Positions 1,289-15,438 are shown, numbered from the stretch's first letter. The stretch is DNA of 53,366 nucleotides from a virus (IMGVR_UViG_3300017747_004654:1-53366), one strand, 5' to 3'. Notes: a model not told the origin generated them from the letters alone. Program-made: numbers and translations.

Positions 1289-1922
1289 AGCTTTTATATA
1301 TTATTTAGAAAAAGATAATAGTATATTTTATATAGGTAAAACAAAAAATATAAGATCTAGAGAAGCTGATTGGAAACGTGAATATGGAGATGATACTCAA
1401 TTTCATGTTATAGATGAAGTTAAGATTGAAGAATGGAAACAGTGGGAATGTTATTGGATTGAGCAATTTAAACAATGGGGATTTAATCTAATTAATCAAA
1501 ATAAAGGTGGAGGTGGACCTAATAAACATTCTGATGAAACTATTGAAAAAATTAGATCTAAAAAAATAGGTGTAAAACAAAATAGAACTAAAATTAGAAA
1601 AGATAAAGGATTAAAACATTTACAATCTGGTATAAAAATTGGTCGTCCTGAAGGATTTCATTATAGTGAAGAATTAAAACTTCATTTAAGTAATATGAAA
1701 AAAGGAAAATCAAATTACACAATAGAAGGTAAACGTAAATTAACAAATAAAGAATTATATATCTTTATTAATATAAATATTAATGAAGAATTTGAAGGTA
1801 TTAGATATGATTTTCAAAAGAAATATAATTTAAGATATAAAGGAATATATAATTTAGTCACAAATAAAGCAAAAACATATAAAGGATGGAAAATAAAGAA
1901 ATTAAAAGGATGCAAAGATTAG
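1251..1922 (+). mobile_element. Free-standing GIY-YIG homing endonuclease with NUMOD3-like repeats
   Basis: FIY...YIGKT..R, catalytic-type Glu (WECYWI), N..KGG, HSDETIEKIR and HYSEELKLHLS repeats; in-frame ATG at 1251 (TTG at 1242). Confidence 0.8.
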
Positions 1923-2362
1923 CAGGAATAATTACAGAAGATAAAGAATTTAAAAAGGGTCCTCTTGTATATCATTCAACTGATCTACAAAATGCTTCAA
2001 ATATATTAAAAAGTGGTGAAATTAAAACTTATGAAAATATATTGAAATCAACAAATCAAAATCCTGAAGATTGGTATGAAGATCCTAATTATGGTAAATT
2101 TGTATATGTTTCTGATTTCCCACATGATAATAATAATTTTTATGGATTAGGTGATTTAGATGTTACTTTTGTAATTGATAGTAATAAAATAAAACATAAA
2201 ATGACCCAAGCTGATAAAAGTTATGAAGGTGGAACAATATCAGTAAATGGTAACATACCATTAAATGCTGTTGAAAAAGTTATTTTACATAAAGAAGATA
2301 ATAATATAATTAAATTATTGAATGATAAAAAATTAAATTTGAAATTAAAAAATAACCAATGA
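1886..2362 (+). CDS. ADP-ribosyltransferase-fold protein with an N-terminal scaffold-like tag
   Basis: LVYHST..NIL.SG, VYVS, IPLNAVEKV; N-terminus RMQRLAGIITE. Confidence 0.6.
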   Translation: MENKEIKRMQRLAGIITEDKEFKKGPLVYHSTDLQNASNILKSGEIKTYENILKSTNQNPEDWYEDPNYGKFVYVSDFPHDNNNFYGLGDLDVTFVIDSNKIKHKMTQADKSYEGGTISVNGNIPLNAVEKVILHKEDNNIIKLLNDKKLNLKLKNNQ

Positions 2363-2736
2363 AAAAATCAGAATTACAACAAATTATTAAAGAAGAAATT
2401 AATAATATTTTAAAAGAAAATCTATCTCAAGATATTATTACCTTTCTTGAAACTAATGGATTCATTAAGATAAGAAATAGAGAAGAATATCTAAAAGTTA
2501 TTCCTATCTTAACCCAAGCTGGATATTCATTGGTTGGTTATAAATTTCCAATAAAAATAACCCCTTTTGATGTTGGTTATGGGCAAAGAAGACAACCTAG
2601 AAAAAATAGTATATATTTAACTCGAAATACTATTGACCCCAAATATGATAAAAAAAAGTGGTTATGGATAGCTGATGTTTTAGATAAAAATAACATTGAT
2701 GATAGATTTCCTATTGGAAAACCTTACGCTTTATAA
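2359..2736 (+). CDS. Hypothetical protein with a putative capsid-targeting leader
   Basis: MKKSELQQIIKEEINNILKE leader; ATGA overlap with the upstream gene. Confidence 0.6.
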   Translation: MKKSELQQIIKEEINNILKENLSQDIITFLETNGFIKIRNREEYLKVIPILTQAGYSLVGYKFPIKITPFDVGYGQRRQPRKNSIYLTRNTIDPKYDKKKWLWIADVLDKNNIDDRFPIGKPYAL

Positions 2737-2764
2737 ATTTTAAAATATAAAAATTGGATAAAAC

Positions 2765-3547
2765 ATGAGAAAAATTAAATTTGACACTTGCATAGTAGGC
2801 ACAGGTAAAGCAGGAATAGACTTTTCAGCTAAATTAGCTCAAAAATATAATTTACCTACCGAGCAAAAGTCGGTCCAAATAGGCTGTAGATTTGAAAGCC
2901 CACAAAAATACTTCCAAAAATTAATTGATATTAGCTATGATTTCAAATTATATCAAAAACCAAATGATAAAGTATCTTTACGTTCATTTTGTACAAATAA
3001 CAATGCAGCTTATGTGGCTGTTGAGAACACTTATGGGGATATAAGTTATAATGGACATGCTAAAAAAGGTGAAGAATTTAGAAATGATATGACCAACTTT
3101 GGTATTCTAATGGAAATTAAAGGCATTGAAAATCCATTTGAATGGTCACGTGACTTAGTAAATAAATTACAAATTAGACCTAATAATACAGGTCTATATT
3201 ATTCACCTAATGGTACCCGCACTCCATCAAATACATCTGAAGGAACACTTATTAATACAGCCCAAATTGATGAAATTGGATTAAGAGATGTAGATAACGC
3301 ATTTCAGGGATATTGGTTTTATATTAAACAATTTATTGACAAAATGAACGAAGTATTTGAATTTGGTGATGATTGGGGAATCTATATACCTGAGGTAAAA
3401 TATGCCGCACCAGAACCTTTAACAAATCATTCTGATTTATCTTTAGTAGAATATTCTAATGTTCATTTCGTCGGAGATGCATTATCAGCAAGAGGTATAA
3501 CTGTTAGTGGTGCCCAAGCCATTTATGTAGCTGAATCGCTTTTATAG
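2765..3547 (+). CDS. FAD-dependent oxidoreductase, C-terminal fragment of a split gene
   Basis: FDTCIVGTGKAG, IGCRFE, RSFCTN, YNGH, TNFGIL, PEVKY, FVGDA..RGI motifs continue the fold begun at 746. Confidence 0.8.
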   Translation: MRKIKFDTCIVGTGKAGIDFSAKLAQKYNLPTEQKSVQIGCRFESPQKYFQKLIDISYDFKLYQKPNDKVSLRSFCTNNNAAYVAVENTYGDISYNGHAKKGEEFRNDMTNFGILMEIKGIENPFEWSRDLVNKLQIRPNNTGLYYSPNGTRTPSNTSEGTLINTAQIDEIGLRDVDNAFQGYWFYIKQFIDKMNEVFEFGDDWGIYIPEVKYAAPEPLTNHSDLSLVEYSNVHFVGDALSARGITVSGAQAIYVAESLL

Positions 3548-3555
3548 AATGTGCC

Positions 3556-3564
3556 ATATGTATA
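3556..3564 (+). promoter_or_regulatory. Late-type upstream motif variant (ATATGTATA)
   Basis: One mismatch to ATATTTATA, upstream of ATG 3588. Confidence 0.5.
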
Positions 3565-3587
3565 ATAAAATTATACTTATTTAAATA

Positions 3588-4259
3588 ATGGACTTAAGAA
3601 AATACATTCGTGAAATGGTAGAATCAGAGCTTGCAGAGATGGCTCGTATTTCTACAAACATCAAAATTGGTGATTCTGAAAAATTTGAAGCAGCAAAAGA
3701 ACTATATGCTGGAAGATGGTATGCTGATCTTCTTGATTTTGTTGAAGAAGCAGGAGAAGTAGGTATCCCACAACCTGAACTAGCTAGAATGTTAGGAAAA
3801 TCAGGAATGCAAGCTATTAATCCAATAGTTAGAGACTTTGTAGAAGCAGGTATTCTTACTAAAGGTGATTTATCAATGGCTAAAAAAGAAAAATCTGAAC
3901 CTAGTGGAATTAAAGGTCGTCCTACATCAGAAAAAACATTAATGGCTAAAGCCGTTAATTCAAAACTTGAAGCAGACGCTAACTACGAACCGACAGAAGA
4001 AGAAATGGCAATGTTAGGTCCTGAATTTGTTGAAAAACTTAAAATGCGTGTTAAAGGATTACTAAGACGTGGTCGTCCGGTAGCAGCTTCTAAAGCAAAA
4101 GATGGTATGATGGCTGCTATGAAAAATGTAGGAAATGAAGATGTAGATGGTGATGGTGATGTTGATGATGAGGATTTAGATATTGAAGATATCCAAGAAT
4201 CAGATACACTTAATGAATCATTTATCAGAATGCAAAAAATCGCTGGTATCATTAAATAA
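3588..4259 (+). CDS. Putative internal head DNA-binding protein (wHTH plus AT-hook-like motifs)
   Basis: QPELARMLGKS...IVRDFVEAGIL wHTH-like segment; KGRP and RRGRP; C-terminal RMQKIAGIIK matches the scaffold tail. Confidence 0.55.
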   Translation: MDLRKYIREMVESELAEMARISTNIKIGDSEKFEAAKELYAGRWYADLLDFVEEAGEVGIPQPELARMLGKSGMQAINPIVRDFVEAGILTKGDLSMAKKEKSEPSGIKGRPTSEKTLMAKAVNSKLEADANYEPTEEEMAMLGPEFVEKLKMRVKGLLRRGRPVAASKAKDGMMAAMKNVGNEDVDGDGDVDDEDLDIEDIQESDTLNESFIRMQKIAGIIK

Positions 4260-4282
4260 ATTTTATTAACTTAATTTAAATT

Positions 4283-4312
4283 GAGGGCTTGGATTACCAA
4301 GTCCTCTTTTTT
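4283..4312 (+). terminator. Rho-independent terminator
   Basis: GAGGGCTTGG-atta-CCAAGTCCTC plus T6. Confidence 0.85.
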
Positions 4313-4319
4313 ATATTCA
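4288..4319 (+). promoter_or_regulatory. Host-type promoter embedded in the terminator
   Basis: CTTG-N20-TATATTCA. Confidence 0.6.
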
Positions 4320-4337
4320 AATAAAAATAAAAGTTAT

Positions 4338-4565
4338 ATGAGCAATAAAAAAACAGATATTAAGCGTATTAAATCTCCAGATGGGATTATTCGTTGTATT
4401 AAAGATGGAAAACTTCACAATACTGATGGTCCAGCAGTAATTTATCCTGATGGTAAAGAAGAGTACCATCTAAATGGTTTTCAATATTCTAAAGATGAAT
4501 ATAAAAAACGTAAAAAAGAAGGTGAAGGTTTACCATGGTTTAAAAAAAGAGGAGAAAGATTTTAG
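4338..4565 (+). CDS. Small protein with an LHxxDGPA (MORN-like) repeat
   Basis: GKLHNTDGPAVIYPDGKEEY; start moved from TTG 4281 (upstream of the terminator) to in-frame ATG 4338. Confidence 0.6.
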   Translation: MSNKKTDIKRIKSPDGIIRCIKDGKLHNTDGPAVIYPDGKEEYHLNGFQYSKDEYKKRKKEGEGLPWFKKRGERF

Positions 4566-4628
4566 AAGGAGGGGAGACCACCTTTATATAAAATAGATAA
4601 TCAAAGAAAAAATAAATACTAGAAAATT

Positions 4629-5159
4629 ATGCGCATAGGATTCACAGGAACAGTATCAGTTGGTAAAACTACTTTAGTTAATTCATTAAAAGAATTACAT
4701 GAATTTAAACACTATAATTTTGCTACAGAACGTAGTAAATATTTACGTGATTTAGGAATACCTTTAAATACTGATAGTACTTTAAAAGGTCAAACTATAT
4801 TTTTAGCTGAGCGTTGTTCTGAATTAATAAGAGAAAATACTATTACTGATAGAACAGTAATTGATGTTATGGCATTTACCAAATGTGCTAAATCAATTAA
4901 TGATTATAATAAAAAATCATTTATTGAATATGCTTCTCCATTTATTTGGGATTATGATTATATATTTTATGTTTCTCCTATTGGTATTAAGATTGAAGAT
5001 AATGGAGTTAGAGAAACTAATGCTGAATATCGTGATTTAATTGATTTTACTATTAAAAATATTATTAATAGTAATCTTCATAATATTAAAAATTTTGGTA
5101 TTATCTCTGGTACTACTGAAGAAAGAATTAAACAAATTAAATTTTACTTAGGTTTTTAA
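4629..5159 (+). CDS. P-loop nucleotide kinase/ATPase (AAA_28, NadR/dNMP-kinase-like)
   Basis: GTVSVGKTT Walker A, ITDR..D, EDNGVR. Confidence 0.7.
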   Translation: MRIGFTGTVSVGKTTLVNSLKELHEFKHYNFATERSKYLRDLGIPLNTDSTLKGQTIFLAERCSELIRENTITDRTVIDVMAFTKCAKSINDYNKKSFIEYASPFIWDYDYIFYVSPIGIKIEDNGVRETNAEYRDLIDFTIKNIINSNLHNIKNFGIISGTTEERIKQIKFYLGF

Positions 5160-5167
5160 TATTTATA
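5159..5167 (+). promoter_or_regulatory. Late-type motif ATATTTATA
   Basis: Exact motif 17 nt upstream of ATG 5185. Confidence 0.65.
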
Positions 5168-5184
5168 TTAAAACAATATATTAA

Positions 5185-5823
5185 ATGAAAAATATTAAAA
5201 ATCAAATCAAAGAAATAATTCGTGAAGAATTAAATAAAATTAAAGAAAATATGTCTTCAAAATGGGATTCTTTATCCCATGAACAACGAGAAGATTTAAT
5301 TTCTACAGTTATTAAAGACCCAGATGACTATTTAAAATATATTGGATGGAAATGGGCTGAATTACCTGATGAAATAACTAATTTATTAGATACTATTCAA
5401 GATAATGAATTAAATGAAAATGAAATGGATTTTAATAAAGGAGATATTGTTAAAATAGATCCATTTTTAGACACAGATCCTTATAGCAAACGAGGTGAAG
5501 AAGGAATAATTTCTGATTTTGATGATGAAATAGCAACTATAAAGTTTGATGATGGTATAACTGGAAAATACCAATGGGGAACTTTTAGTAAAGTAGATAT
5601 AGAAGAAGCTGGAACATATGCTGGTAATAAATCTATTGATGACCTCAAAAAAGATTCAGACTATAACACATTGAATCCCCAAACCAAAACAGATGTTGAA
5701 AAAAAATTAAAAACTGGAGGAAGTATCACAATTGGAGAAAATAATTCTTCAAAAACATCATTTACAGGTCGTCCAATAACAGAATCTTTAAATGATAGAT
5801 TTAAAAGATTATTAAATTCTTAA
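5185..5823 (+). CDS. Putative internal head protein with an SH3/KOW-like domain
   Basis: Leader QIKEIIREELNKIKE; FNKGDIVKI...GII..FDDG; C-terminal ESLNDRFKRLL. Confidence 0.5.
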   Translation: MKNIKNQIKEIIREELNKIKENMSSKWDSLSHEQREDLISTVIKDPDDYLKYIGWKWAELPDEITNLLDTIQDNELNENEMDFNKGDIVKIDPFLDTDPYSKRGEEGIISDFDDEIATIKFDDGITGKYQWGTFSKVDIEEAGTYAGNKSIDDLKKDSDYNTLNPQTKTDVEKKLKTGGSITIGENNSSKTSFTGRPITESLNDRFKRLLNS

Positions 5824-5847
5824 AATTACTTTTTAATTTATTTAATT

Positions 5848-5873
5848 AAGCACCTTATTAGGTGCTTTTTTTT
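5848..5873 (+). terminator. Rho-independent terminator
   Basis: AAGCACCT-tatt-AGGTGCTT plus T run. Confidence 0.85.
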
Positions 5874-5912
5874 ATTTTTCATATATGTATATACGTAATT
5901 ATATACTAATAT

Positions 5913-7487
5913 ATGTCTGAAAAAGTAGACTTTAAACAAATAATAAGAGAAGAATATGTTAAATGTATTAAAGATCCTTCTCATTTTATGAACAAATATT
6001 GTTATGTACAACATCCCCAAAGAGGTAGAGTTTTATTTAATTTATATCCTTTTCAATCTAAAGTATTAAATCTTTGGCAACATAATCAATATAATATTGT
6101 ATTAAAATCAAGACAGTTAGGTATATCAACATTAGCCGCTGGTTATTCACTTTGGTTAATGTTATTTCATAAAGATAAAAACATATTATGTGTTGCTACT
6201 AAATCCGAAACAGCAAAAAATATGGTAACTAAAGTTCGATTTATGTTTGAACAATTACCAACATGGCTTAAAATAGGTGTAGAAGAAAATAATAGATTAT
6301 CTTTAAGATTATCGAATGGTTCACAAATAAAAGCAGTTTCTGCAGCTAGTGATGCAGGTAGATCTGAAGCAGTATCACTATTAATAGTAGATGAAGCAGC
6401 ATTTATAGACAATATTGAGGATATATACACAAGTATCAAACCCACAATTTCAGCTGGAGGAGGTTGTTTAATTTTAAGTTCTCCTAATGGTGTTGGTAAT
6501 TGGTTTCATCAAACATGGGCTAGATCTGAAGCAGATAATAATGACTTTTTACCCATTAAATTACCATGGTATGTTCATCCTGAAAGAAATAAAGAATGGT
6601 TTGAAAAAGAAACCAACAACATGTCACCAAAATTAGTTGCTCAAGAATATGAATGTGACTTCATATCATCAGGAGATACTGTATTCTCTCCAGAACATAT
6701 TGAATTTTATGAAAAAACATATCTAAAAGAACCAATTGAACGTAGAGGAGTAGATAAAAATTTATGGATTTGGGAATCTGTTGATTATAATAAAAATTAT
6801 ATGGTTATAGCAGACGTAGCTAGAGGTGATGGAAAAGATTATTCTGCTTTTCATATAATGGATATACAAAACAATATTCAAGTTGGAGAATATAAAGGAC
6901 AACTAAATACTACAGATTTTGGACATTTATTAGTGGGTATAGCCTCAGAATATAATGAAGCATTACTTGTAGTAGAAAATGCTAGTATAGGGTGGGCAAC
7001 AATACAAACTATATTAGATAGAGGATATAAAAATTTCTATTATTCTCCTAAAAGTGAAGCAATGAATTTAGAATCATATTTGGATAAATATGATAACCCT
7101 AATAATTTTGTTCCTGGATTTACTATGTCTTTAAAAACTAGACCTATGGTAATATCTAAAATGACTGAATATTTTTCTGAAAAAAGTGTTATTATTCAAA
7201 GTAAACGTTTATTAGAAGAAATGAAAACTTTTATTTGGAAAAATGGAAGATCTGAAGCTCAACAAGGATATAATGATGATTTAATAATGAGTTTTGGAGT
7301 AGGATTATATGTTAGAGATACTGCTCTTAGATTTAAACAACAAAACTTAGATTTAACTCGTGCAGCTTTAGACAGCTTTAAAACTACTAAAACATCATAT
7401 AATGGAGTTTATAGTCCTTCAAAATCTGATAACCCATATAAATTTGATGTTAATGGAAATAATGAAGATTTAAGGTGGCTTTTTTAA
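5913..7487 (+). CDS. terL: Terminase large subunit (T4 gp17-like)
   Basis: LYPFQ, KSRQLGIST, LIVDEAAF, SSPNG, QEYEC.F, ADVARG..DYS, NDDL. Confidence 0.95.
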   Translation: MSEKVDFKQIIREEYVKCIKDPSHFMNKYCYVQHPQRGRVLFNLYPFQSKVLNLWQHNQYNIVLKSRQLGISTLAAGYSLWLMLFHKDKNILCVATKSETAKNMVTKVRFMFEQLPTWLKIGVEENNRLSLRLSNGSQIKAVSAASDAGRSEAVSLLIVDEAAFIDNIEDIYTSIKPTISAGGGCLILSSPNGVGNWFHQTWARSEADNNDFLPIKLPWYVHPERNKEWFEKETNNMSPKLVAQEYECDFISSGDTVFSPEHIEFYEKTYLKEPIERRGVDKNLWIWESVDYNKNYMVIADVARGDGKDYSAFHIMDIQNNIQVGEYKGQLNTTDFGHLLVGIASEYNEALLVVENASIGWATIQTILDRGYKNFYYSPKSEAMNLESYLDKYDNPNNFVPGFTMSLKTRPMVISKMTEYFSEKSVIIQSKRLLEEMKTFIWKNGRSEAQQGYNDDLIMSFGVGLYVRDTALRFKQQNLDLTRAALDSFKTTKTSYNGVYSPSKSDNPYKFDVNGNNEDLRWLF

Positions 7488-7523
7488 TATTTATTAATAT
7501 ATTATAAATCACAATATTTTAAA

Positions 7524-9398
7524 ATGGCAGATAAAAGTTTATTCTCAAGATTAAGAAGATTATTTTCTACAGATGTTGTTATACGCAACATTGGTGGTAA
7601 TGAATTAAAAGTTATTGATACCAACCAAATCCAACAATCTGGAGATATTTTAACCAATTCATTATATGATAGATATAGTAGATTATATGTAACTGGAAAT
7701 TCCCCAGTTTATAATCCTGCTATGAATTATCCATTAATGAGAACCCAATTATATAATGACTATGAAGCTATGGATACCGATGCTATATGTGCTTCAGCAT
7801 TAGATATATTATCAGATGAAAGTACTTTAAAAAATGATATGGGTGAAATGCTCCAAATAAAAAGTACAGATGAAAATATTCAAAAAATACTATATAATTT
7901 ATTTTATGATATATTAAATGTAGAATTTAATCTTTGGTCATGGGTTAGAAATATGTGTAAATATGGTGATTTCTTTTTAAAACTAGAAATTGCTGAAGGA
8001 TTGGGGGTATATAATGTTATCCCTTATACAGCATATAATATAGCAAGAGAAGAAGGATATGACCCAAAATCAATGAGTTCAGTTAGATTTAGATTTGATC
8101 CAAATGGTATTGGGTCTGAAACTCAAAATAGTTTTGGATTATTAACGGCAAAATCAGATGTAGGTGTATATTTTGATAATTATGAAATAGCTCATTTTAG
8201 ATTATTAGCAGATGTAAATTACTTACCATATGGACGTTCTTACCTAGAACCAGGAAGAAAGCTCTTTAAACAATTAACTATGATGGAAGATGCTATGTTA
8301 GTTCATCGTATAGTTAGAGCTCCTGAAAAACGAGTATTTTATATGAATGTAGGTGGGATTCCTCCAAATGAAGTAGATGCATTTATGGAAAAAACAATTT
8401 CCAAAATGAAACGCACCCCTTATATAGATCCAAATACTGGTCAATACAATATGAAATTTAACCTTCAAAACATGATGGAAGATTTTTACATCCCAGTAAG
8501 AGGAAATGATTCCTCTACTAAAATAGATGTTACTAAAGGATTAGATTATGACGGAATCACAGACGTTACTTATTTAAGAGATAAATTATTTGCTGCACTT
8601 AAAATACCTAAAGCTTTTTTAGGATATGATGATAAATTGCAAGGTAAAGCTACATTAGCTGCTGAAGATATAAGATTTGCTCGTACCATAGAACGTATTC
8701 AAAAGATTATTTTATCTGAGTTATATAAAATAGCATTAATACATTTATATTCTCAAGGATATAAAGATGAAAATTTAGTTAATTTTGAACTATCATTAAC
8801 TACTCCTTCTATAATTTATGAACAAGAAAGAATAGCATTAATGAAAGAAAAAGTTGAATTAGCTAAAAATATGCTTGAAGCTAACTTACTACCCTCAGAT
8901 TTTATATATGATTATATATTCCAATTTAGTCAAGACCAATATGATGAATATAGGGATTTAATAGTTTATGATAAAAAACGTAATTTTAGATATAAACAAA
9001 TTGAAGATGAAGGTAATGATCCATTAGAAAGTGGTGCATCATATGGAACTCCTCATGATTTAGCAACATTATATGGTCAAGGTAGATATCAATCTAATTC
9101 TAAAGATGTACCTTTGGGATATAATGAAGATACACCACTAGGAAGACCTAAAAAGAAAGTATCTAAAATAAATACTCAAGAAGATCCTTTAGGAAGAGAT
9201 AGATTAGGTAGAAAAGACATGAAAGTAGATGATCAACCTGGTATAGATAAAAGTGTAAAAGAAATTTCAACCGATAATACTAAAACAGAATATTTAAAAA
9301 ATAAAACATTGTTAGAAAATTTATCTAATAAAAAAATATTTACTAAAAATGATAAAAACAAAGAATCACTTTTAGATGAAGATCAATTAATTGATTAA
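7524..9398 (+). CDS. Portal protein (T4 gp20-like)
   Basis: PYGRSYLE, MEDAMLVHRIVRAPEKRVFY, EDF..PVRG, LFAALKIP, EDIRFARTI. Confidence 0.93.
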   Translation: MADKSLFSRLRRLFSTDVVIRNIGGNELKVIDTNQIQQSGDILTNSLYDRYSRLYVTGNSPVYNPAMNYPLMRTQLYNDYEAMDTDAICASALDILSDESTLKNDMGEMLQIKSTDENIQKILYNLFYDILNVEFNLWSWVRNMCKYGDFFLKLEIAEGLGVYNVIPYTAYNIAREEGYDPKSMSSVRFRFDPNGIGSETQNSFGLLTAKSDVGVYFDNYEIAHFRLLADVNYLPYGRSYLEPGRKLFKQLTMMEDAMLVHRIVRAPEKRVFYMNVGGIPPNEVDAFMEKTISKMKRTPYIDPNTGQYNMKFNLQNMMEDFYIPVRGNDSSTKIDVTKGLDYDGITDVTYLRDKLFAALKIPKAFLGYDDKLQGKATLAAEDIRFARTIERIQKIILSELYKIALIHLYSQGYKDENLVNFELSLTTPSIIYEQERIALMKEKVELAKNMLEANLLPSDFIYDYIFQFSQDQYDEYRDLIVYDKKRNFRYKQIEDEGNDPLESGASYGTPHDLATLYGQGRYQSNSKDVPLGYNEDTPLGRPKKKVSKINTQEDPLGRDRLGRKDMKVDDQPGIDKSVKEISTDNTKTEYLKNKTLLENLSNKKIFTKNDKNKESLLDEDQLID

Positions 9399-9408
9399 AA
9401 ATTTACAT

Positions 9409-9417
9409 ATATTTATA
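9409..9417 (+). promoter_or_regulatory. Late-type motif ATATTTATA
   Basis: Exact motif 13 nt upstream of ATG 9431. Confidence 0.65.
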
Positions 9418-9430
9418 AAAAATACATTTG

Positions 9431-10288
9431 ATGAAAATCGCACATTCTAAGTACCGTAATACTGGAATATTATTTGAAATTCTAATACGCCAAGTAACAT
9501 CTGATACTTTATCTGGAAAAGATTCCTCAGCATTGCCTATTATTAAAAAGTATTTTACTAAAACTGAACTTAGTAAAGAATATAGATTATATGAAACTTT
9601 ATTTAAAAATAAAAACCTTTCAGAATCAAAAGCAGAAATACTTATAAATACTTTATTGGAAGCTTCAACTAAATTAAATAAAACTTCATTAAGAAAACAA
9701 AAATATAATCTTATAAAAGAATTAAAAGAACATTATAATTTAGATGAATTATTTAAAACTAAATTACCAAATTATAAATTCCAAGCTGCATTTTTTATTC
9801 TTATAGAAAGTAAAAATTCTAAAGAAAATATAGATACTGAACAAGTATTTAATAATAAAATTACTTTATTAGAATCTTTAACTTCTTCAAAAATTAATAA
9901 AGAAGTCCCAAAGCCAACAGTACTTGATGAATTTAATGATTATGATAAAGATACTAGAATATTAACATATAAAATATTACTAGAAAAATTCAATAACAAG
10001 TATAAAAATTTAAGTGATAGACAAAAAAATATTTTAAAAGAATATATTAATTCTATAGATTCTACTCCAAAATTAAAAGAATTTTACAATCAAAATATTT
10101 TTGAATTAAAAACTGAAATTGTAGAATTAAATAAAAAAGTTAAAGATAAATCTGTTAGTATTAAGTTAAATGAAGTGGTTAAATTATTAAAAGAAATTGA
10201 TAAAACTTCTTCTATTAAAAGTGATGATATAGTAAATTTATTACAATATTATGATTTATTAAACGAATTAAAAGTAGTTAATAAATGA
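9431..10288 (+). CDS. Head-module hypothetical protein
   Basis: Long helical ORF between portal and protease; HSKYRNTGILFE N-terminus; ATG 9431 preferred over TTG 9428. Confidence 0.6.
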   Translation: MKIAHSKYRNTGILFEILIRQVTSDTLSGKDSSALPIIKKYFTKTELSKEYRLYETLFKNKNLSESKAEILINTLLEASTKLNKTSLRKQKYNLIKELKEHYNLDELFKTKLPNYKFQAAFFILIESKNSKENIDTEQVFNNKITLLESLTSSKINKEVPKPTVLDEFNDYDKDTRILTYKILLEKFNNKYKNLSDRQKNILKEYINSIDSTPKLKEFYNQNIFELKTEIVELNKKVKDKSVSIKLNEVVKLLKEIDKTSSIKSDDIVNLLQYYDLLNELKVVNK

Positions 10289-10638
10289 AACGTGATCAAT
10301 TAAAAGAAATAGTAAAGAAAAAACTTCAAGAGAATGGAGATGCAGTGGCTGCATTAAGAGATAAAAATTTAAAAGAAGTATTATCTCCTATGAAATTAGC
10401 AGATTTATTAGCTAAAGAAGGAGTTATTAAAGATGAATTTTTAGACATGAGAGGTGGAGCATCATCTAAACTTGGATTCATATTAGACAAATGTATTAAA
10501 GAATTAGAAATAGTAAAAGAAATATCTTCTACTGGGGGTGGAGCTTCTTTCACTCCAGGAGTTGGAGAACAATATGCTACACCAAAAGCATTTAATGGAA
10601 AGAAAAAACTTCCAATAATTAGAAAACCATTAAGATAA
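10285..10638 (+). CDS. Putative prohead core/internal protein
   Basis: MKRDQLKEIVKKKLQE leader; position in the head module. Confidence 0.5.
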   Translation: MKRDQLKEIVKKKLQENGDAVAALRDKNLKEVLSPMKLADLLAKEGVIKDEFLDMRGGASSKLGFILDKCIKELEIVKEISSTGGGASFTPGVGEQYATPKAFNGKKKLPIIRKPLR

Positions 10639-10642
10639 TTCA

Positions 10643-10651
10643 ATATTTATA
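10643..10651 (+). promoter_or_regulatory. Late-type motif ATATTTATA
   Basis: Exact motif only 3 nt upstream of ATG 10655. Confidence 0.6.
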
Positions 10652-10654
10652 ATC

Positions 10655-10903
10655 ATGAATAATTCTCGTAAAATAAAAGATTTAAAAATTAAAATTGCTA
10701 ATCTTGAATTAGAAATCAGATCACTGCTAGATGCAGGAAAATCTGAGCCCGGCATTATAGACGCTATAGCTGCGGATATAAGCGATTTTACTGACGAGAT
10801 TATGAAAGTAAAAAAAGAACTAAAAAGTATGGGAGTTAAAATTGATGAATCCATTAAATTAGTTGATTTATATGAAGATTTAACAAAAAATAAAAACAAT
10901 TAA
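10655..10903 (+). CDS. Small coiled-coil protein, possibly internal head protein
   Basis: Own upstream motif; C-terminal IDESIKLVDLYE resembles the KLxDIL.E tag. Confidence 0.5.
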   Translation: MNNSRKIKDLKIKIANLELEIRSLLDAGKSEPGIIDAIAADISDFTDEIMKVKKELKSMGVKIDESIKLVDLYEDLTKNKNN

Positions 10904-10909
10904 TCATAA

Positions 10910-11950
10910 ATGAAAACACTACAAGAACAATATAATTTAATTAAAGAAGGAAAAGGTAATAAAGATTTTTTCATGAAATCTACTTTAACTCAATTTCCTA
11001 ATTTAGTTAATAAATTTACTTCATTTAACTCAGCAATTCAAATATTATCTACAAAAGGTATTATTTCTGAAGGAATAGGAGGATTAGTATGTAAACCTGA
11101 AAAAGAACCAGATTGGTTTTCTATTTTTAAAGAAAATATAAATGAAGAATATGGTCATCAAGAAGCTAAAGCTGAAGAAAAAAAACCAACTAAAGATGTA
11201 GTTGATACTGAGATTGAAGGATATGATTATAAAGATTTAGATAACATAGATAATATCTATGGTGAACAATTTTTAAAAGGATTTTATACTGAAATGAGAG
11301 ATCCTAAAAATGAGGAAAAATCTGTAGAAGATCTTAAAAAAATTGTAGCTAAAAATTTAAAAAAAGATAGATTACACTATGTAAAGGATGGTCAATTTGG
11401 AGTTAAAGGATTAGGATATACTGAAGATGCACCTGGCTTAGGTATTCCAAAAGAAGCAAAAGGTAAATATAAAAGTAGTGGATATGGTACTTTGAAAGAA
11501 AACCAAGAAAAAAAACTAACTGAAAATTACATGATTTCTAAATCTGGTTCTAAAACAAATCCTTCATATGTTATAGAAAAAACAGACGGATCTGAACAAA
11601 TAAATATGTTTTTTGATTCTGAAGAAAAAGCTAAAGAATACGCTGATAAAAAAGGATTAAAAATTAGCCCTAAAAAGGGATATAATATGGAAGAATCATT
11701 AGATGAATATAAAAGCACATTAGGTGATTTTGATGGATCTGGTTTAATAGTAGTAGGTTCTACTCAACTAAATAACAATGCTATAGGTGATATGCTAGAA
11801 GAAACTGATTTTTATGGTATTTGGAATACTAGAGAAGGATATTGGTTTTTTCCAGAAGCAGAAGAAACTTTAGATATTTTAGAAAAAGAATTAGAACAAG
11901 AATTTATTCAAAGAGGAATTAGCGCTAGATTTGAAGGACAATATTATTAA
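10910..11950 (+). CDS. Acidic prohead core/internal head protein
   Basis: Directly upstream of the protease; many (L/I)xE sites (LIKE, ISE, INE, LKE, LTE). Confidence 0.55.
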   Translation: MKTLQEQYNLIKEGKGNKDFFMKSTLTQFPNLVNKFTSFNSAIQILSTKGIISEGIGGLVCKPEKEPDWFSIFKENINEEYGHQEAKAEEKKPTKDVVDTEIEGYDYKDLDNIDNIYGEQFLKGFYTEMRDPKNEEKSVEDLKKIVAKNLKKDRLHYVKDGQFGVKGLGYTEDAPGLGIPKEAKGKYKSSGYGTLKENQEKKLTENYMISKSGSKTNPSYVIEKTDGSEQINMFFDSEEKAKEYADKKGLKISPKKGYNMEESLDEYKSTLGDFDGSGLIVVGSTQLNNNAIGDMLEETDFYGIWNTREGYWFFPEAEETLDILEKELEQEFIQRGISARFEGQYY

Positions 11951-11959
11951 AATTATCCC

Positions 11960-12592
11960 ATGAAACAAATTTTAAAAGAATATCATTCATTTAATTCAAA
12001 ACCCTTAACAATAAACGAAGCCTTATCAAAACAAGGTGGTAATTTATTTGTTGAAGGTATTTTGGCTACTGTAGAAGAAAAAAATGGTAATGGAAGATAT
12101 TATAAAAAAGAATTATGGGAAAGAGAAATTGAAAAATTTCAACAAAAAATAAATAACCACACCACTGAAACCTGTGGAGAACTAGACCACCCCGATAGTC
12201 AAATAATTAATTTAAAAAATGCATCTCATGCTGTTAGAAAATTATGGTGGGAGGGTGATGTAATTAAAGGATTATTAGAAATATTTTGTGCTGAAGATAG
12301 AAGAGGGAATGTTGCTGGTAGAATAGCAGGTTCATTTTTTTATAATAATTTATTAACTGGTATTTCTTCTCGTGGTATGGGTTCACTTAAACAAGTGGGT
12401 GAAATTTTAGAAGTACAAGATGATTTTGAACTATTAACCTGGGATCTAGTAAGTAATCCTTCAAACCACGGATCATACATGTCTCCAGTTAGTTTAAATG
12501 AAGGAGCAAATTCAGTATATGATCCTTATCATAAAGTAAATTCAATATTGAAAGATATTTTATGTTCTAATGGATCTTGCCCCATAATTTAA
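11960..12592 (+). CDS. Prohead maturation protease (T4 gp21-like)
   Basis: NGNGR.Y, GELDHP, GISSRGMGS, WDLVSNPS. Confidence 0.93.
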   Translation: MKQILKEYHSFNSKPLTINEALSKQGGNLFVEGILATVEEKNGNGRYYKKELWEREIEKFQQKINNHTTETCGELDHPDSQIINLKNASHAVRKLWWEGDVIKGLLEIFCAEDRRGNVAGRIAGSFFYNNLLTGISSRGMGSLKQVGEILEVQDDFELLTWDLVSNPSNHGSYMSPVSLNEGANSVYDPYHKVNSILKDILCSNGSCPII

Positions 12593-12618
12593 CATTATTT
12601 AAAAAATATTTTAAAATT

Positions 12619-12645
12619 AAGATACATTTATGTATCTTTTTTTTT
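12619..12645 (+). terminator. Rho-independent terminator
   Basis: AAGATACA/TGTATCTT stem plus T run. Confidence 0.7.
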
Positions 12646-12692
12646 CTTTTTTTCGATTTTAATCTTTTTTCGGGTATGTATGGATATACAAT

Positions 12693-12777
12693 ATGCTACG
12701 TCCTGTAGTATTAACCGAAAACTAATCCCCATTATACTTTTTTAATAAGTATATTTCCAAAAACAAATTTTAGGAAA
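12693..12777 (+). promoter_or_regulatory. Structured 5' leader of the scaffold gene
   Basis: Three hairpins: 12693-12711, 12733-12753 and 12754-12777, the last abutting the ATG. Confidence 0.45.
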
Positions 12778-13770
12778 ATGAACAGAGATTTTTTAAAAGA
12801 AGCTATCGCTGATGCGAAGACAATCAAAGAAACAGCAATTGTGAATGCTAAAAAAGCTTTAGAAGAAACTTTTACCCCCCATTTACAATCCATGCTTTCT
12901 GCAAAAATTTCAGAAATAGAAGAAGCTGATCTAGAAGAAAATGAACTAGAAGAAGTAGAAGCTATAGATGAAATGGACAAAGAAATGGATGAAATGATGA
13001 AAAATGAAGATGAAAATCTAACTTATGAAACAGAAATGAAAAAAGGTAAAGATTTAGAAGAAGTAGATTTAGATGAACTATTAGCTGAACTAGAAAATGT
13101 TAATGAAGCTGAAGAAGAAATGGATGACACAGAAATGGATTCTGAAATGGATGATATGGATATAGATTCTAAAATGTCTGAAGAAGAATTTAGCATTGAA
13201 GACATGTCTGAAGAAGAATTAGTTTCATTTATTGAAAATGTAATTGAAGACATGATTAAAAGTGGTGAGCTAGAAGCTGGTGAATCAATGGAAAGTGAAG
13301 AAGAATTAGATGAAGAAATCAATTTAGAAGCACTTTTTAATGAAGAAGAAGAAATGGAAGAAGCTTATGAAGAAGATAAAATGATGGAAGCTTTAAAAAA
13401 CAAACTAAAAACAACTGAAACTGAACTTAAAGAAGCATATAGTGCTATCAACGAGATGAAGAATCAGTTAAATGAAGTAAATCTTTTAAATGCTAAATTG
13501 CTTTACGTTAACAAAATTTTCAAAGCTAAAACATTATCTGAAGGCCAAAAATTAGATGTTTTAACAGCATTTGATAAAGCAACAAATGTTAAAGAAGTAA
13601 AATTAATTTTTGAAACCCTTCATACCAATTTCAAAACATCAAAAACTCCAATTAAAGAAAATAGAATTGGATTTGCTTCAAAACCAACACAAGTTGTATC
13701 AAACCAAAAACCAATTATGGAAGTTGATGCTTTAGTAACCAAATTCCAAAAATTAGCAGGTATTATTTAA
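12778..13770 (+). CDS. Prohead scaffold protein (gp22-like)
   Basis: Highly acidic coiled-coil protein between protease and capsid; C-terminal KFQKLAGII. Confidence 0.85.
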   Translation: MNRDFLKEAIADAKTIKETAIVNAKKALEETFTPHLQSMLSAKISEIEEADLEENELEEVEAIDEMDKEMDEMMKNEDENLTYETEMKKGKDLEEVDLDELLAELENVNEAEEEMDDTEMDSEMDDMDIDSKMSEEEFSIEDMSEEELVSFIENVIEDMIKSGELEAGESMESEEELDEEINLEALFNEEEEMEEAYEEDKMMEALKNKLKTTETELKEAYSAINEMKNQLNEVNLLNAKLLYVNKIFKAKTLSEGQKLDVLTAFDKATNVKEVKLIFETLHTNFKTSKTPIKENRIGFASKPTQVVSNQKPIMEVDALVTKFQKLAGII

Positions 13771-13809: not shown

Positions 13810-15438
13810 ATGTCAAACACGATTCAAAATCTTTTAGAATCATCAAACCCATGGCAGTCATTGCAAAATGATGCTGCACGTTTGGCTTCTAAATGGACCA
13901 AAACAGGCTTACTTGAAGGCCTTAATGGAGAAATTGAAAAAAATAACATGTCACTTCTCCTTGAAAATCAAGCAAAACAATTACTTATTGAATCTTCACT
14001 TTCAGGTGGTGGTGTAGCTGGTGCTAGCTTTACAGTAGGTACTGGTGAACAATGGGCTGGAATTGCTCTTCCAATGGTAAGAAAAGTATTTGGACAAATT
14101 TCTTCTAAAGAATTTGTTTCTGTACAACCAATGAACTTACCTTCTGGTCTTGTATTCTTCCTAGATTTCCAATATGGAACTACTAAAGCTCCATTTACAT
14201 CTGGTACTTCACTTTATGGTACCACTTCAGGATCAGCTGATGCTTCAGGTGGTCTTTATGGTGGTGGTAGATTTACTTATTCTACTAACAACACTCAATC
14301 ACTTAATCCATCAGTTGCAGTAGTTACTGCTTCTTGGTCTGACTTTAATTTTGATTCAGCATATTCTGCTTCAGCAGTAAATGATGAGTATAAAAAAATA
14401 ACAGTTACTTTAGGTGCTGGTAGTAATGCTGATTTTAATGGTGTTAGAGGATTTACCTTTACTTCAGGTAGTCAAGTTACAGTTGCAAATAACCTTCCAG
14501 CATTTACTACAACTAATAATACTTCAACCGTATCATTTATTATAACAGGATCTGTTATTCCATCTGTTGCTACATTGAGTAATGCAACTTGTTCTTTCCA
14601 AACTCAACCTTTGGATAACAAGAGAGGTGATTTTGAAGATGGAAACACTACACTTAATGGTAACAACAACCCAATTGTAATTCCTGAACTTAACATTCAA
14701 ATGAGAAGTGAAGCTATTACTGCTAAAACTAAAAAGTTAAAAGCTGTATGGACTCCTGAATTTGCTCAAGACTTGAATGCTTATCAAAATTTGGATGCTG
14801 AATCTGAATTGACTAGCATTATGAGTGAATATGTTTCATTAGAAATTGACCTTGAAATTCTTGACATGTTAATTGAAAATGCTCCTAGCGTAGAATATTG
14901 GTCAGCTATTAACAACCAAGCAATTACTAGCGCTACAGGTGATGGTACATTTAATAACAGTTTAGGATTTTATAACACTCAAGGTGGATGGTTCCAAACA
15001 TTGGGCACTAAAATTCAGAAACTTAGCAACGTTATTCATCAGAAAACTCTTCGTGGTGGAGCTAATTTCTTAGTATGTTCTCCAACAGTAGCAACAGTTA
15101 TTGAATCAATTGCTGGATTTGCTTCTAACACTGATGGTGATGCTCACAAACAAAAATATGCGTTTGGTGTACAAAAAGCTGGTCAATTAAATGGTCGCTA
15201 TACTGTATACAAAAACCCATATATGCAAGAAAATACAATCTTGTTGGGATATAAAGGAAACCAATTCCTTGAAACTGGTGCTGTATTTGCTCCATATGTT
15301 CCATTGATTATGACTCCTCTTGTATACGATCCTGATACCTTTACTCCAAGAAAAGGTCTCTTGACTCGTTATGCTAAAAAGATGGTTCGTCCTGAATTCT
15401 ATGCTAAGATTTATGTTAGTGGTTTGAATACCCTATAA
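13810..15438 (+). CDS. Major capsid protein (T4 gp23-like)
   Basis: VSVQPM..PSGLVF, KLKAVWTPEFAQDL, LEID.EIL, APYVPL, F.PRKGLLTRY. Confidence 0.96.
   Translation: MSNTIQNLLESSNPWQSLQNDAARLASKWTKTGLLEGLNGEIEKNNMSLLLENQAKQLLIESSLSGGGVAGASFTVGTGEQWAGIALPMVRKVFGQISSKEFVSVQPMNLPSGLVFFLDFQYGTTKAPFTSGTSLYGTTSGSADASGGLYGGGRFTYSTNNTQSLNPSVAVVTASWSDFNFDSAYSASAVNDEYKKITVTLGAGSNADFNGVRGFTFTSGSQVTVANNLPAFTTTNNTSTVSFIITGSVIPSVATLSNATCSFQTQPLDNKRGDFEDGNTTLNGNNNPIVIPELNIQMRSEAITAKTKKLKAVWTPEFAQDLNAYQNLDAESELTSIMSEYVSLEIDLEILDMLIENAPSVEYWSAINNQAITSATGDGTFNNSLGFYNTQGGWFQTLGTKIQKLSNVIHQKTLRGGANFLVCSPTVATVIESIAGFASNTDGDAHKQKYAFGVQKAGQLNGRYTVYKNPYMQENTILLGYKGNQFLETGAVFAPYVPLIMTPLVYDPDTFTPRKGLLTRYAKKMVRPEFYAKIYVSGLNTL

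What the first reader, a model, noticed from the sequence alone, without database searches (positions are those of the whole stretch)
1886..13770. Scaffold C-terminal peptide reused as a portable cargo tag on unrelated proteins
Seen: the scaffold ends KFQKLAGII (13741-13770). Near-identical peptides sit at the C-terminus of the wHTH/AT-hook protein (ESFIRMQKIAGIIK, 4227-4259) and at the N-terminus of an ART-fold protein (RMQRLAGIITE, 1886-1939). A weaker version ends ORF 5185 (ESLNDRFKRLL). In the three carriers a small-hydrophobic-x-Glu site separates tag from body (LNE, ITE, ITE). Established: scaffold C-terminal helices bind coat protein in HK97-fold viruses such as P22, T4 gp21 cleaves after (L/I)xE, and encapsulins load cargo by short terminal peptides. 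Inference: the phage uses the scaffold's capsid-binding helix as an N- or C-terminal loading tag that the prohead protease removes, releasing cargo for injection.
Basis: partly seen in the sequence, partly recalled or inferred. Interest (0 to 1): 0.87.

Follow-up and report, generated by a model that had tools for sequence, protein, structure and literature searches.

The report
Scaffold tail peptide reused as portable tag
In this T4-like marine phage and its relatives, the short peptide that ends the head scaffolding protein also sits at the very start or end of many unrelated small proteins, most likely as a removable address label that loads them into the phage head.

Summary
The 8-residue motif occurs 3 times in the six frames of the window (expected 0.0003), each time at a protein end. 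In a scan of viral contigs for RMQK[LF]AGI, 80 of 81 hits were terminal: 66 within 4 residues of a stop and 14 within 15 residues of a start Met. The scaffold C-end motif is conserved out to Microcystis phage Mel-JY01 and Rhodothermus phage RM378.

The N-terminal form marks 1126 protein-cluster representatives, and their bodies are mostly unrelated to each other. An [LI]xE site lies wherever the tag meets a body: after N-tags, before C-tags, and on both sides of internal tags. The phage has a T4 gp21-family protease. The window's carriers are an ADP-ribosyltransferase-fold protein and a probable winged-helix protein.

My best reading, about 0.6, is a cleavable prohead-targeting tag that mimics the scaffold tail. 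It resembles the T4 capsid-targeting sequence but has a different sequence and works at either end. Binding to the capsid protein, cleavage and injection are not shown. The fourth, "weaker" copy in ORF 5185 is not supported. I found no printed description of the motif.

The parts
12778..13770 (+). Acidic head scaffolding protein (330 aa), between the protease and the major capsid protein
   Evidence: Position and composition. Homologues in 65 related loci share the N-end ...LLKEAIADAK..., the NLLNAKLLYxNKIF block and the C-end tag.
13723..13767 (+). Scaffold C-terminal tag VDALVTKFQKLAGII, preceded by I-M-E (13714-13722)
   Evidence: A117 and G118 are invariant, and R112, K115 and L116 are nearly invariant, in 31 scaffold tails (alignment A2). 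The same kind of tail is present in Mel-JY01 and RM378.
1886..1939 (+). N-terminal tag MENKEIKRMQRLAGIITE of ORF 1886, ending in the I-T-E site
   Evidence: E 0.0058. The tag is kept in 15 of the 74 homologues that have a leader (85 found).
1886..2362 (+). Tagged cargo 1: 158-aa protein with an ADP-ribosyltransferase-like fold
   Evidence: Model pLDDT 82.7. Best Foldseek PDB hits are Tpt1/KptA and DarT, then scabin: best E 2.9e-5, 2 hits at E <= 0.001, TM 0.42-0.59 for the Tpt1, DarT and scabin rows. The Atlas gave DarT/PARP and Arr as leads only. No Pfam or PHROG hit.
3588..4259 (+). Tagged cargo 2: 223-aa protein with an N-terminal helix, a probable winged-helix domain (residues about 35-99), two invariant GRP motifs and an acidic stretch
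   Evidence: Model pLDDT 71.4, pTM 0.36. VIA-align wide: Z-alpha, MarR, ArsR, TFE and LexA winged helices at Z 5.8-7.4, below the tool's caution line of 8. Foldseek found nothing at E <= 0.001. G110-R111-P112 and R161-G162-R163 are invariant in 35 sequences.
4209..4256 (+). L-N-E site plus C-terminal tag SFIRMQKIAGIIK of ORF 3588
   Evidence: E 0.00087. Of 70 homologues, the tag lies within 3 residues of the end in 43, 4-15 residues from the end in 9, and is internal in 12.
11960..12592 (+). Prohead protease, T4 gp21 family
   Evidence: Pfam Peptidase_S77, E 9.4e-21. PHROG 207, head maturation protease, E 2.2e-42.
13810..15438 (+). T4 gp23-like major capsid protein. The likely maturation site is L59-I60-E61 (13984-13992).
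   Evidence: tblastn: immuto 54%, Mel-JY01 49%, RM378 34%, T4-like phages 24-27%. E61 is invariant in 26 sequences. T4 gp23 reads L-T-E at residues 63-65, and the review says 65 residues are removed.
5185..5823 (+). ORF 5185, whose tail ...ITESLNDRFKRLLNS was proposed as a weak copy. It is not accepted here as a tag.
   Evidence: No hit in the profile search. The tail is kept in its one non-identical homologue.

Best explanation
The window is part of a T4-like ('Far-T4', immuto-like) myovirus. Its head is built on an internal scaffolding core and matured by a gp21-type serine protease.

The last 15 or so residues of the scaffolding protein (core E-x-x-x-F-x-R-[MF]-[QK]-[KQ]-L-A-G-[IL]-[IL]) form a short, probably helical, docking peptide. 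It holds the scaffold to a conserved partner inside the prohead. That partner could be the capsid protein's inner face or propeptide, or the core itself.

The phage lineage has copied this peptide onto the N-end, the C-end or an inter-domain linker of many unrelated small proteins, so they are co-assembled into the prohead core. Wherever the peptide joins a body there is an [LI]-x-E site. The prohead protease cuts there, frees the body inside the head and lets the tag leave with the scaffold debris. The freed proteins stay with the DNA and are probably delivered to the next host. In this window they are an ADP-ribosyltransferase-fold enzyme, comparable to T4 Alt, and a DNA-binding-type protein.

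Shown here: the motif, its terminal position, its portability, the flanking sites, the protease family and the carrier folds. Inferred: docking, cleavage, packaging and injection.
For: (1) Specificity. There are 3 matches in the window against 0.0003 expected.

(2) Terminal position. In 80 loci returned by a scan of viral contigs for back-translated RMQK[LF]AGI, there were 81 hits: 66 within 4 residues of a stop, 14 within 15 residues of a start Met, and 1 (L131) without an upstream Met.

(3) Whole genomes. A tag profile run against the six frames of the window, three long relatives and the complete Flavobacterium phage immuto genome (552 kb in all) gave 12 hits at E <= 0.072. These were 5 scaffold ends, 1 ORF 3588 end, 5 N-terminal copies and 1 ambiguous copy.

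(4) Portability.
- 24 N-tagged bodies of at least 30 aa fall into 23 BLAST clusters, whereas 81 scaffolds form one cluster.
- A profile of the N-tag finds 1126 representatives of 50%-identity clusters at E <= 1e-3. Of the best 150, 134 carry it at the N-end only.
- The 102 of those that are at least 100 aa fall into 66 BLAST clusters.

(5) Modularity.
- ORF 3588 homologues keep the tag at the extreme C-end even when an extra domain is inserted before it.
- In 12 of 70 homologues the tag lies between two domains, as [LI]NE-tag-ITE.
- ORF 1886 homologues carry four or more different leaders on one conserved body.

(6) Cleavage-type sites.
- The E of an [LI]xE falls within 6 residues after the Gly in 21 of 26 N-tags, against 5.8% at control positions.
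- An [LI]xE lies 5-9 residues before 66 of 88 C-tags, against 15.5% at control positions.
- 63 of 74 ORF 1886-family leaders end in [LI]xE 5-8 residues before the body.

(7) The protease is Peptidase_S77. The capsid protein has an invariant E61 in an L-I-E context, like T4 gp23 L-T-E65.

(8) Deep conservation of the scaffold tail, out to Mel-JY01 and RM378, argues for a structural contact.

(9) Gene context. The genomic setting is visible (a terminase, portal or capsid gene on the same record or locus) for 19 of the 26 N- or internally tagged genes examined. Of these 19, 13 lie within 7.5 kb upstream of the large terminase gene or inside the head module (plus the window).

(10) Precedent from passages read in the T4 head review (PMC9958956). 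T4 internal proteins and the ADP-ribosyltransferase Alt are core components, their small N-terminal peptides are removed by gp21, and a ~10-aa N-terminal sequence targets foreign proteins into the core.
Against: - No experiment or proteome shows any tagged protein in a virion. The two bodies in this window have no match in the 50,697 deposited phage records.
- The [LI]xE next to the tag could be part of the binding motif rather than a cleavage site. The counts come from related sequences and are not independent.
- The same ART-like body carries leaders that do not resemble the scaffold tail (59 of 74 leaders). Mimicry of the scaffold tail is therefore not required for whatever the leaders do.
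- Three tagged genes lie far from the head genes: G001, G002 and immuto gp230, at 31 to 94 kb.
- ORF 1886 and ORF 3588 lack, within 60 nt upstream, the ATATTTATA motif that precedes many structural genes.
- The tag helix is modelled with low confidence: pLDDT about 56 in ORF 1886 and 53-78 in ORF 3588.
- T4 gp22 has no such tail, so the analogy is functional and not a matter of homology.
Confidence: 0.6

Rival explanations
1. This is the same targeting function with a different partner. The tag does not dock on the capsid protein. It pairs with the scaffold or core itself (helix-helix self-association), or with the portal or the protease. Carriers would then be incorporated as core components, as is assumed for the T4 capsid-targeting sequence.
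For: The T4 review says the capsid-targeting sequence localises proteins 'in the core structure' and that the mechanism 'remains mysterious'. Nothing in my data identifies the partner. The tag works at N-, C- and internal positions, which suits a simple helix-pairing module.
Against: In the phages where the contact has been solved, the scaffold's C-terminal region binds the capsid protein. This is stated in the 80alpha abstract; for P22 I am relying on recall. A scaffold needs a capsid-protein contact somewhere, and this tail is one of its two best-conserved segments.
Confidence: 0.22
2. The peptide is a general interaction or oligomerisation helix, or a regulatory peptide. Examples are a protease-recruitment exosite, a degradation signal, or a handle for a phage or host hub protein. 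It would be shared by the scaffold and many small proteins without serving head loading.
For: Some carriers are encoded far from the head genes. Among the 102 carriers of at least 100 aa taken from the best 150 profile hits, 8 Pfam families matched, each in one member: RecA, KaiC-type ATPase, TnsA-like nuclease, HD, PBECR4 nuclease, nSTAND3, DUF6576 and AHD. Other leader types can replace it on the same body.
Against: The invariant, clade-wide position at the extreme end of the scaffolding protein ties the peptide to head assembly. The [LI]xE boundaries match the specificity expected of the encoded S77 protease. The RecA-family hit may be a fused gene call and was not checked.
Confidence: 0.12
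3. The shared peptide is only a by-product of modular gene shuffling. It would be a recombination joint or a leftover of duplicated scaffold gene ends, with no function in the carriers.
For: Tagged genes cluster in a variable region upstream of the terminase gene. Leaders are swapped between homologous bodies.
Against: Conservation is at the protein level and not the DNA level: only 3-4 of 6-7 identical residues use the same codon within the window. The peptide is kept on hundreds of diverged bodies while those bodies have lost all similarity. Its position is strictly terminal or site-flanked.
Confidence: 0.04

Closest known systems
T4 capsid-targeting sequence (CTS) on internal proteins IPII/IPIII, and processing of IPs and Alt by gp21
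   Same: Both have a T4-type prohead with a scaffolding core and an S77 protease. Both use a short terminal peptide shared by otherwise diverse small proteins and removed at an (L/I)xE-type site. In both, the cargo includes an ADP-ribosyltransferase-type enzyme. [quoted passage not shown]
   Different: Here the peptide is about 15-22 residues and equals the scaffold's own C-terminal tail. It works at the N-end, the C-end and internally, and it marks over a thousand protein clusters. T4 gp22 has no such tail. I did not fetch the T4 IP sequences, so similarity to the T4 CTS itself was not tested.
Scaffold C-terminal capsid-binding segment shared by a second protein: phage 80alpha scaffold and SaPI1 CpmB
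   Same: [quoted passage not shown]
   Different: CpmB is a rival scaffold from a satellite that changes capsid size. It is not cargo and not a portable tag on many proteins. It has no link to T4-type protease sites and belongs to a different phage lineage.
Encapsulin cargo-loading peptides
   Same: Both use a short terminal peptide that directs unrelated cargo into an HK97-fold shell. This works like the case here. I saw only the search listing for the review PMC8229669; the details are recalled.
   Different: Encapsulins have no portal, scaffold, protease or DNA, and their peptide is not removed. This element is a tailed phage (terminase, portal, sheath), so it is not a member of that family.
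N-terminal capsid-targeting of phage P1 Dar proteins, and protease-processed ejection proteins of giant phages (SPN3US / phiKZ type)
   Same: Head-internal proteins are delivered to the host. Some have N-terminal targeting regions or propeptides cut by the prohead protease. I saw only search listings.
   Different: No identity with the scaffold tail has been reported there, as far as the listings show. The papers were not read.

Membership tests
T4-type capsid-targeting sequence / internal-protein system | Prohead matured by a gp21-family (Peptidase_S77) protease | tested here: met
   ORF 11960-12592: Pfam PF03420, E 9.4e-21; PHROG 207, E 2.2e-42.
T4-type capsid-targeting sequence / internal-protein system | A short terminal peptide conserved on otherwise unrelated proteins | tested here: met
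   80 of 81 hits are terminal. 24 N-tagged bodies fall into 23 clusters. 1126 cluster representatives match the N-tag profile.
T4-type capsid-targeting sequence / internal-protein system | A protease site of the (L/I)xE type between the peptide and the body | tested here: met
   At the sequence level only. 21 of 26 N-tags against a 5.8% control; 66 of 88 C-tags against a 15.5% control. Internal tags have a site on each side. Actual cleavage was not tested.
T4-type capsid-targeting sequence / internal-protein system | Sequence similarity to the T4 CTS | not tested
   The T4 IP sequences were not fetched. T4 gp22, gp21, gp67 and gp68 termini were read, and the motif does not occur in the parts printed.
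T4-type capsid-targeting sequence / internal-protein system | The tagged protein is packaged into proheads and processed | not testable with these tools
   This needs virion or prohead proteomics or reporter fusions. No proteome was found for immuto or Mel-JY01 (listings only).
Scaffold C-terminal capsid-protein-binding helix (P22 / 80alpha type) | Conserved segment at the extreme C-end of the scaffolding protein | tested here: met
   19 scaffold ends in 80 portal-anchored loci. 63 of the 66 C-terminal hits were assigned to scaffolds: the non-scaffold C-tagged cluster members from those loci are L110, L112 and L169. Alignment A2. Mel-JY01 and RM378.
Scaffold C-terminal capsid-protein-binding helix (P22 / 80alpha type) | Helical structure of the segment | tested here: inconclusive
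   The tag is modelled as a helix in both carriers: H3-12 with pLDDT about 56, and H204-218 with pLDDT 53-78.
Scaffold C-terminal capsid-protein-binding helix (P22 / 80alpha type) | Direct contact with the inner face of the major capsid protein | not testable with these tools
   No usable result was obtained here (see Tried and rejected). It needs cryo-EM of proheads or binding assays.
Encapsulin cargo-loading peptide | The shell is an encapsulin (no portal, terminase or tail), with cargo retained uncleaved | tested here: not met
   The window encodes terminase, portal, protease, sheath, tube and baseplate. It works like a cargo-loading peptide but is not a member.
ADP-ribosyltransferase superfamily (ORF 1886 body) | ART fold | tested here: met
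   Foldseek PDB: Tpt1 E 2.9e-5 and 4.9e-4, then DarT, KptA and scabin. TM is 0.42-0.59 for the Tpt1, DarT and scabin rows. 46 of the 47 listed rows are ART-superfamily enzymes or the small protein CC0527.
ADP-ribosyltransferase superfamily (ORF 1886 body) | Catalytic residues (H-Y-E or R-S-E type) in place | not tested
   H30, Y49, S76 and E114 are invariant in 34 sequences, but they were not mapped onto a solved active site.
Winged helix-turn-helix (ORF 3588, residues 35-99) | Winged-helix fold | tested here: inconclusive
   VIA-align wide gives Z 7.4, rmsd 2.1 over 58 residues, to the ZBP1 Z-alpha domain, followed by many MarR, ArsR and LexA rows. All are below the tool's caution line of Z 8. 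Foldseek found nothing at E <= 0.001.

The most novel reading that the evidence does not exclude
A tailed phage lineage runs a natural, general cargo-loading system. Any protein that carries the scaffold's tail peptide, at either end or in a linker, docks in the scaffold's own pocket on the capsid protein propeptide. It is then enclosed, cut free by the prohead protease and injected. The 1126 or more tagged protein clusters would then be a large and almost wholly uncharacterised arsenal of injected effectors (ADP-ribosyltransferases, nucleases, DNA binders, anti-defence proteins). The tag would also reveal, by its sequence alone, how proteins are localised in T4-type cores, and would link phage scaffolds to encapsulin cargo peptides.
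Probability: 0.3. Interest if true: 0.9.

Novelty: new variant of a known kind. Interest (0 to 1): 0.74.

Why it matters
[quoted passage not shown] Here the sequence suggests a concrete and testable mechanism, which is mimicry of the scaffold's own docking tail.

If that is right, three things follow:
- Packaged and injected proteins could be listed from sequence alone in a large, abundant clade of aquatic T4-like phages. Most of these proteins have no known family: 8 Pfam families matched, each in one of the 102 carriers scanned.
- The head-borne ADP-ribosyltransferase would be explained as a counterpart of T4 Alt.
- It would provide a natural, position-independent, self-removing tag for loading foreign proteins into phage heads.

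At least one cultured host-phage pair (Flavobacterium sp. LMO8 and phage immuto) carries two N-tagged genes, so the idea can be tested at the bench.

Tried and rejected
- **Complex prediction.** The major capsid protein (alignment A3, 26 rows) was folded with the last 50 residues of the scaffold (alignment A2, 31 rows). The verdict was 'no answer' (score 0.00, mark 0.32) and the controls were not run. This says nothing either way.
- **T4 late promoter TATAAATA.** 31 matches against 26.7 expected, so it is not enriched. A different motif, ATATTTATA, was followed instead.
- **ORF 5185 as a fourth copy.** No profile hit, and only 2 homologues were found. Rejected as unproven.
- **Cultured relatives with virion data.** Neither ORF 1886 nor ORF 3588 has any tblastn match in the 50,697 phage records. 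A 36-aa N-tag query found only the four immuto records plus two chance-level hits. No paper on Mel-JY01 was found. The 5 listed of the 8 papers that mention immuto concern DNA modification, polymerases or ecology, judging by their titles; they were not read.
- **Foldseek on the whole ORF 3588 model.** Nothing at E <= 0.001.
- **Loose regex in the 80 portal loci.** It also picked up 2 internal matches (L063 and L078:13042...QK[KQ]R[LI]AGLDEIEK...) that lack the R[MF]Q context. I take these as unrelated.
- **N-terminal 'IIREE'-type helix as a second tag.** I considered this for ORFs 2359, 3588, 5185 and 10285. I did not adopt it for the window because the large terminase also starts with such a helix, so it may only reflect composition. 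It is reported only for the ORF 1886 family, where leader swapping is seen on one body.

Full report
**What the window is.** The 53-kb contig is the whole record held for this genome. It has about 28% G+C. It encodes, on the + strand:
- a large terminase (5913-7487) and a portal (7524-9398);
- four small or medium ORFs;
- a prohead protease (11960-12592), a very acidic scaffolding protein (12778-13770) and a major capsid protein (13810-15438);
- then sheath, tube, baseplate and replication genes.

The protease belongs to the T4 gp21 family (Pfam Peptidase_S77, E 9.4e-21; PHROG 207, E 2.2e-42). The capsid protein is closest to Flavobacterium phage immuto (54%), Microcystis phage Mel-JY01 (49%) and Rhodothermus phage RM378 (34%). 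It is 24-27% identical to T4-like coliphages. This is therefore a distant T4-type head module.

**The observation.** These are the last residues of the scaffold, the last residues of ORF 3588-4259 and residues 8-15 of ORF 1886-2362. The expected count is 0.0003, and none of 300 simulated sequences had a match. The three copies use different synonymous codons, so the repeat is kept at the protein level. The proposed fourth copy at the end of ORF 5185 lacks the invariant Ala-Gly and was not found by a tag profile. Its tail is kept in its only non-identical homologue, so I leave it open but do not count it.

**Is it terminal in relatives?** I asked this in three independent ways.
1. *Portal-anchored loci.* In 80 loci fetched with the portal protein, a loose pattern gave 23 hits. 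Of these, 19 were at the C-end of the scaffold ORF, one was N-terminal (L071), one was ambiguous (L040), and two were internal matches without the R[MF]Q context, which I regard as unrelated.
These held 81 hits. 66 lay 1-4 residues before a stop, 14 lay 5-12 residues after a Met, and one (L131) had no Met upstream in the open frame.
3. *Whole genomes.* A tag profile was run against the six frames of five genomes: the window, three contigs of 77-156 kb, and the complete 160-kb immuto genome (552 kb in all). It gave 12 hits at E <= 0.072, and the next hits (E >= 0.36) lacked Ala-Gly. Each genome has the scaffold end plus one or two further copies, including immuto gp083 and gp230.

The scaffold tail is also present in Mel-JY01 (...ERMKKLAGIVK) and in the RM378 ORF next to its capsid gene (...ERIKRLAGL). 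It is absent from T4 gp22.

**Is it portable?**
- *Bodies are unrelated.* Of 114 distinct carriers collected from these loci, 110 had bodies of at least 30 aa. 81 scaffolds formed one BLAST cluster. The 24 N-tagged or internally tagged bodies formed 23 clusters.
- *N-terminal consensus.* The N-terminal form has a longer consensus, MKKQILSEEFxRMQKLAGIITE.
- *Scale.* A profile of that consensus, searched against 1.84 billion cluster representatives, found 1126 proteins at E <= 1e-3 and 16 at E <= 1e-10. Among the best 150, 134 carry it at the N-end only and 8 have a second copy. Most of the 8 others have a Met just before the consensus, which suggests a mis-called start. The profile contains the start Met, so it favours the N-terminal form.
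- *Cargo diversity.* The 102 carriers of at least 100 aa fall into 66 BLAST clusters. Only 8 Pfam families matched, each in one member: RecA, KaiC-type ATPase, TnsA-like nuclease, HD, PBECR4 nuclease, nSTAND3, DUF6576 and AHD.
- *Double tags.* Three proteins of 874-1005 aa carry a tag at both ends.

**Modularity within families.**
- *ORF 3588 family (70 homologues).* The tag is within 3 residues of the end in 43, is followed by a short tail in 9, and is absent in 6. In 12 it lies between the conserved body and an extra C-terminal domain, as ...[LI]NE-SFxRMQKLAGLITE-.... Some members have an extra domain inserted before the tag, which still ends the protein.
- *ORF 1886 family (85 homologues, 74 with a leader).* The body is 54-82% identical to the window's protein among the 33 homologues aligned, but the leader is swapped. 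15 have the scaffold-like tag, 35 have a ...KFIATTIREYLNE leader, 12 have a ...EIREMIDKVKSFNQFINE leader, 1 has an ...LKQIIKEEI... leader and 11 have others.
- The scaffold-like tag is thus one of several interchangeable leaders. This supports a propeptide role. It also shows that resemblance to the scaffold tail is not the only solution.

**The boundary sites.**
- After N-tags, the Glu of an [LI]xE falls within 6 residues of the Gly in 21 of 26 cases, against 5.8% at control positions.
- Before C-tags, an [LI]xE lies 5-9 residues upstream in 66 of 88 cases, against 15.5% at control positions.
- 63 of 74 ORF 1886-family leaders end in [LI]xE 5-8 residues before the body.
- Internal tags have a site on each side.
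- These sequences are related to each other, so the ratios are descriptive. The site could also be part of the docking motif.
- The capsid protein has an invariant Glu61 in L-I-E. T4 gp23 reads L-T-E at residues 63-65, and the review states that gp21 removes its 65-residue N-terminal region.

**The carriers in the window.**
- *ORF 1886.* The model (pLDDT 82.7) matches tRNA 2'-phosphotransferase Tpt1/KptA, DarT and scabin (best E 2.9e-5; TM 0.42-0.59 for those rows). That is the ADP-ribosyltransferase fold. The language-model look-up pointed the same way, but only as a lead.
- *ORF 3588.* The model (pLDDT 71.4, pTM 0.36) gave nothing with Foldseek. Residues 35-99 align to many winged-helix domains at Z 5.8-7.4, below the tool's caution line. 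Two GRP motifs are invariant.
- Neither body occurs in the deposited phage records.

**Gene context.** The genomic setting is visible for 19 of the 26 N- or internally tagged genes examined. Of these 19, 13 lie within 7.5 kb upstream of the terminase gene or inside the head module, among conserved neighbours. Three lie 31-94 kb away.

**Interpretation.** The simplest account is a prohead-targeting tag that mimics the scaffold's docking tail and is removed by the S77 protease. This parallels the T4 capsid-targeting sequence and the processing of T4 internal proteins and Alt (passages read in PMC3012670, and PMC9958956). I put this at about 0.6. Which partner the tail binds is open. The one complex prediction allowed gave no verdict. 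The rivals are the same function through the core, portal or protease (0.22), a non-packaging interaction or regulatory peptide (0.12), and a functionless shuffling joint (0.04).

**Novelty.** Exact-string searches of the paper library for seven forms of the motif found no paper. The concept has precedents:
- the T4 CTS;
- SaPI1 CpmB competing with the 80alpha scaffold for its capsid-protein site (abstract);
- encapsulin cargo peptides (listing only).

What is new is that the tag equals the scaffold's own tail, that it works at either end or in a linker, and its scale. I rate it a new variant of a known kind. It would make a question the T4 field calls 'mysterious' directly testable in a cultured phage.

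**Limits.** All functional steps are inferred. The contigs behind the 1126 representatives could not be inspected, and the C-terminal form was not searched at that scale.

Noticed in passing
window, + strand: 5159, 9409, 10643, 17949, 23254, 24620, 27187, 27477, 30591, 31449, 32524, 34896, 47210: ATATTTATA lies 11-41 nt upstream of the start codons of 13 mostly structural genes. There are 19 matches against 9.3 expected, and only 1 of 100 shuffles reached 19. It is probably this clade's late promoter. The T4 late box TATAAATA is not enriched (31 against 26.7). The motif is not found within 60 nt upstream of the tagged ORFs 1886 and 3588.
   Followed up: partly
window 10285-10638 (residues 75-108) and 13810-15438 (residues about 66-85): The small head-module ORF 10285 shares a GGGASFTxGxGEQ(Y/W)A stretch with the region of the capsid protein just after its predicted maturation site. 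tblastn with ORF 10285 hits both its own homologues and the capsid gene's 5' part in several loci.
   Followed up: no
window 5611-5733 (ORF 5185 residues 143-183); L125:8968-9090; L053:1436-1630: A roughly 40-residue module (GTYAG..DDLKKDP.Y..L....EK.L..G) recurs in different contexts. In L125 it lies at the C-end of a long open frame. In L053 it follows directly after an N-terminal leader ending in LNE. It may be a second portable module.
   Followed up: no
proteins P0159, P0174, P0182, P0158: Three proteins of 874-1005 aa carry the tag near both the N-end and the C-end. One 47-aa fragment has two tags in tandem. Several 'N plus internal' cases have a Met just before the second tag, so they may be fused calls of adjacent tagged genes.
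   Followed up: no
L129:280-688, L133:1003-4010, L104:392-3262, L170:7631-10327: Some relatives carry two or three differently bodied N-tagged genes close together upstream of the terminase gene. This looks like a small variable 'cargo islet'.
   Followed up: partly
window 48216-48893: A second ORF (225 aa) has an ...LYHITP... stretch and an N-terminal helix ending in LKE, which recalls the ORF 1886 family (LLYHSTD). This was seen by eye only. No search or fold was run.
   Followed up: no
L223 (T4 record), gp21 C-end: T4 gp21 ends ...AEAMKKAL, which faintly recalls ...RMKKLAG. This is too short to judge and was not pursued.
   Followed up: no
L031:9668-10906: One scaffold homologue ends ...QFARMRELAFYSTKH instead of the usual tail. 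It may be a frameshifted or diverged end, and it is the one clear exception among the 65 scaffolds listed.
   Followed up: no
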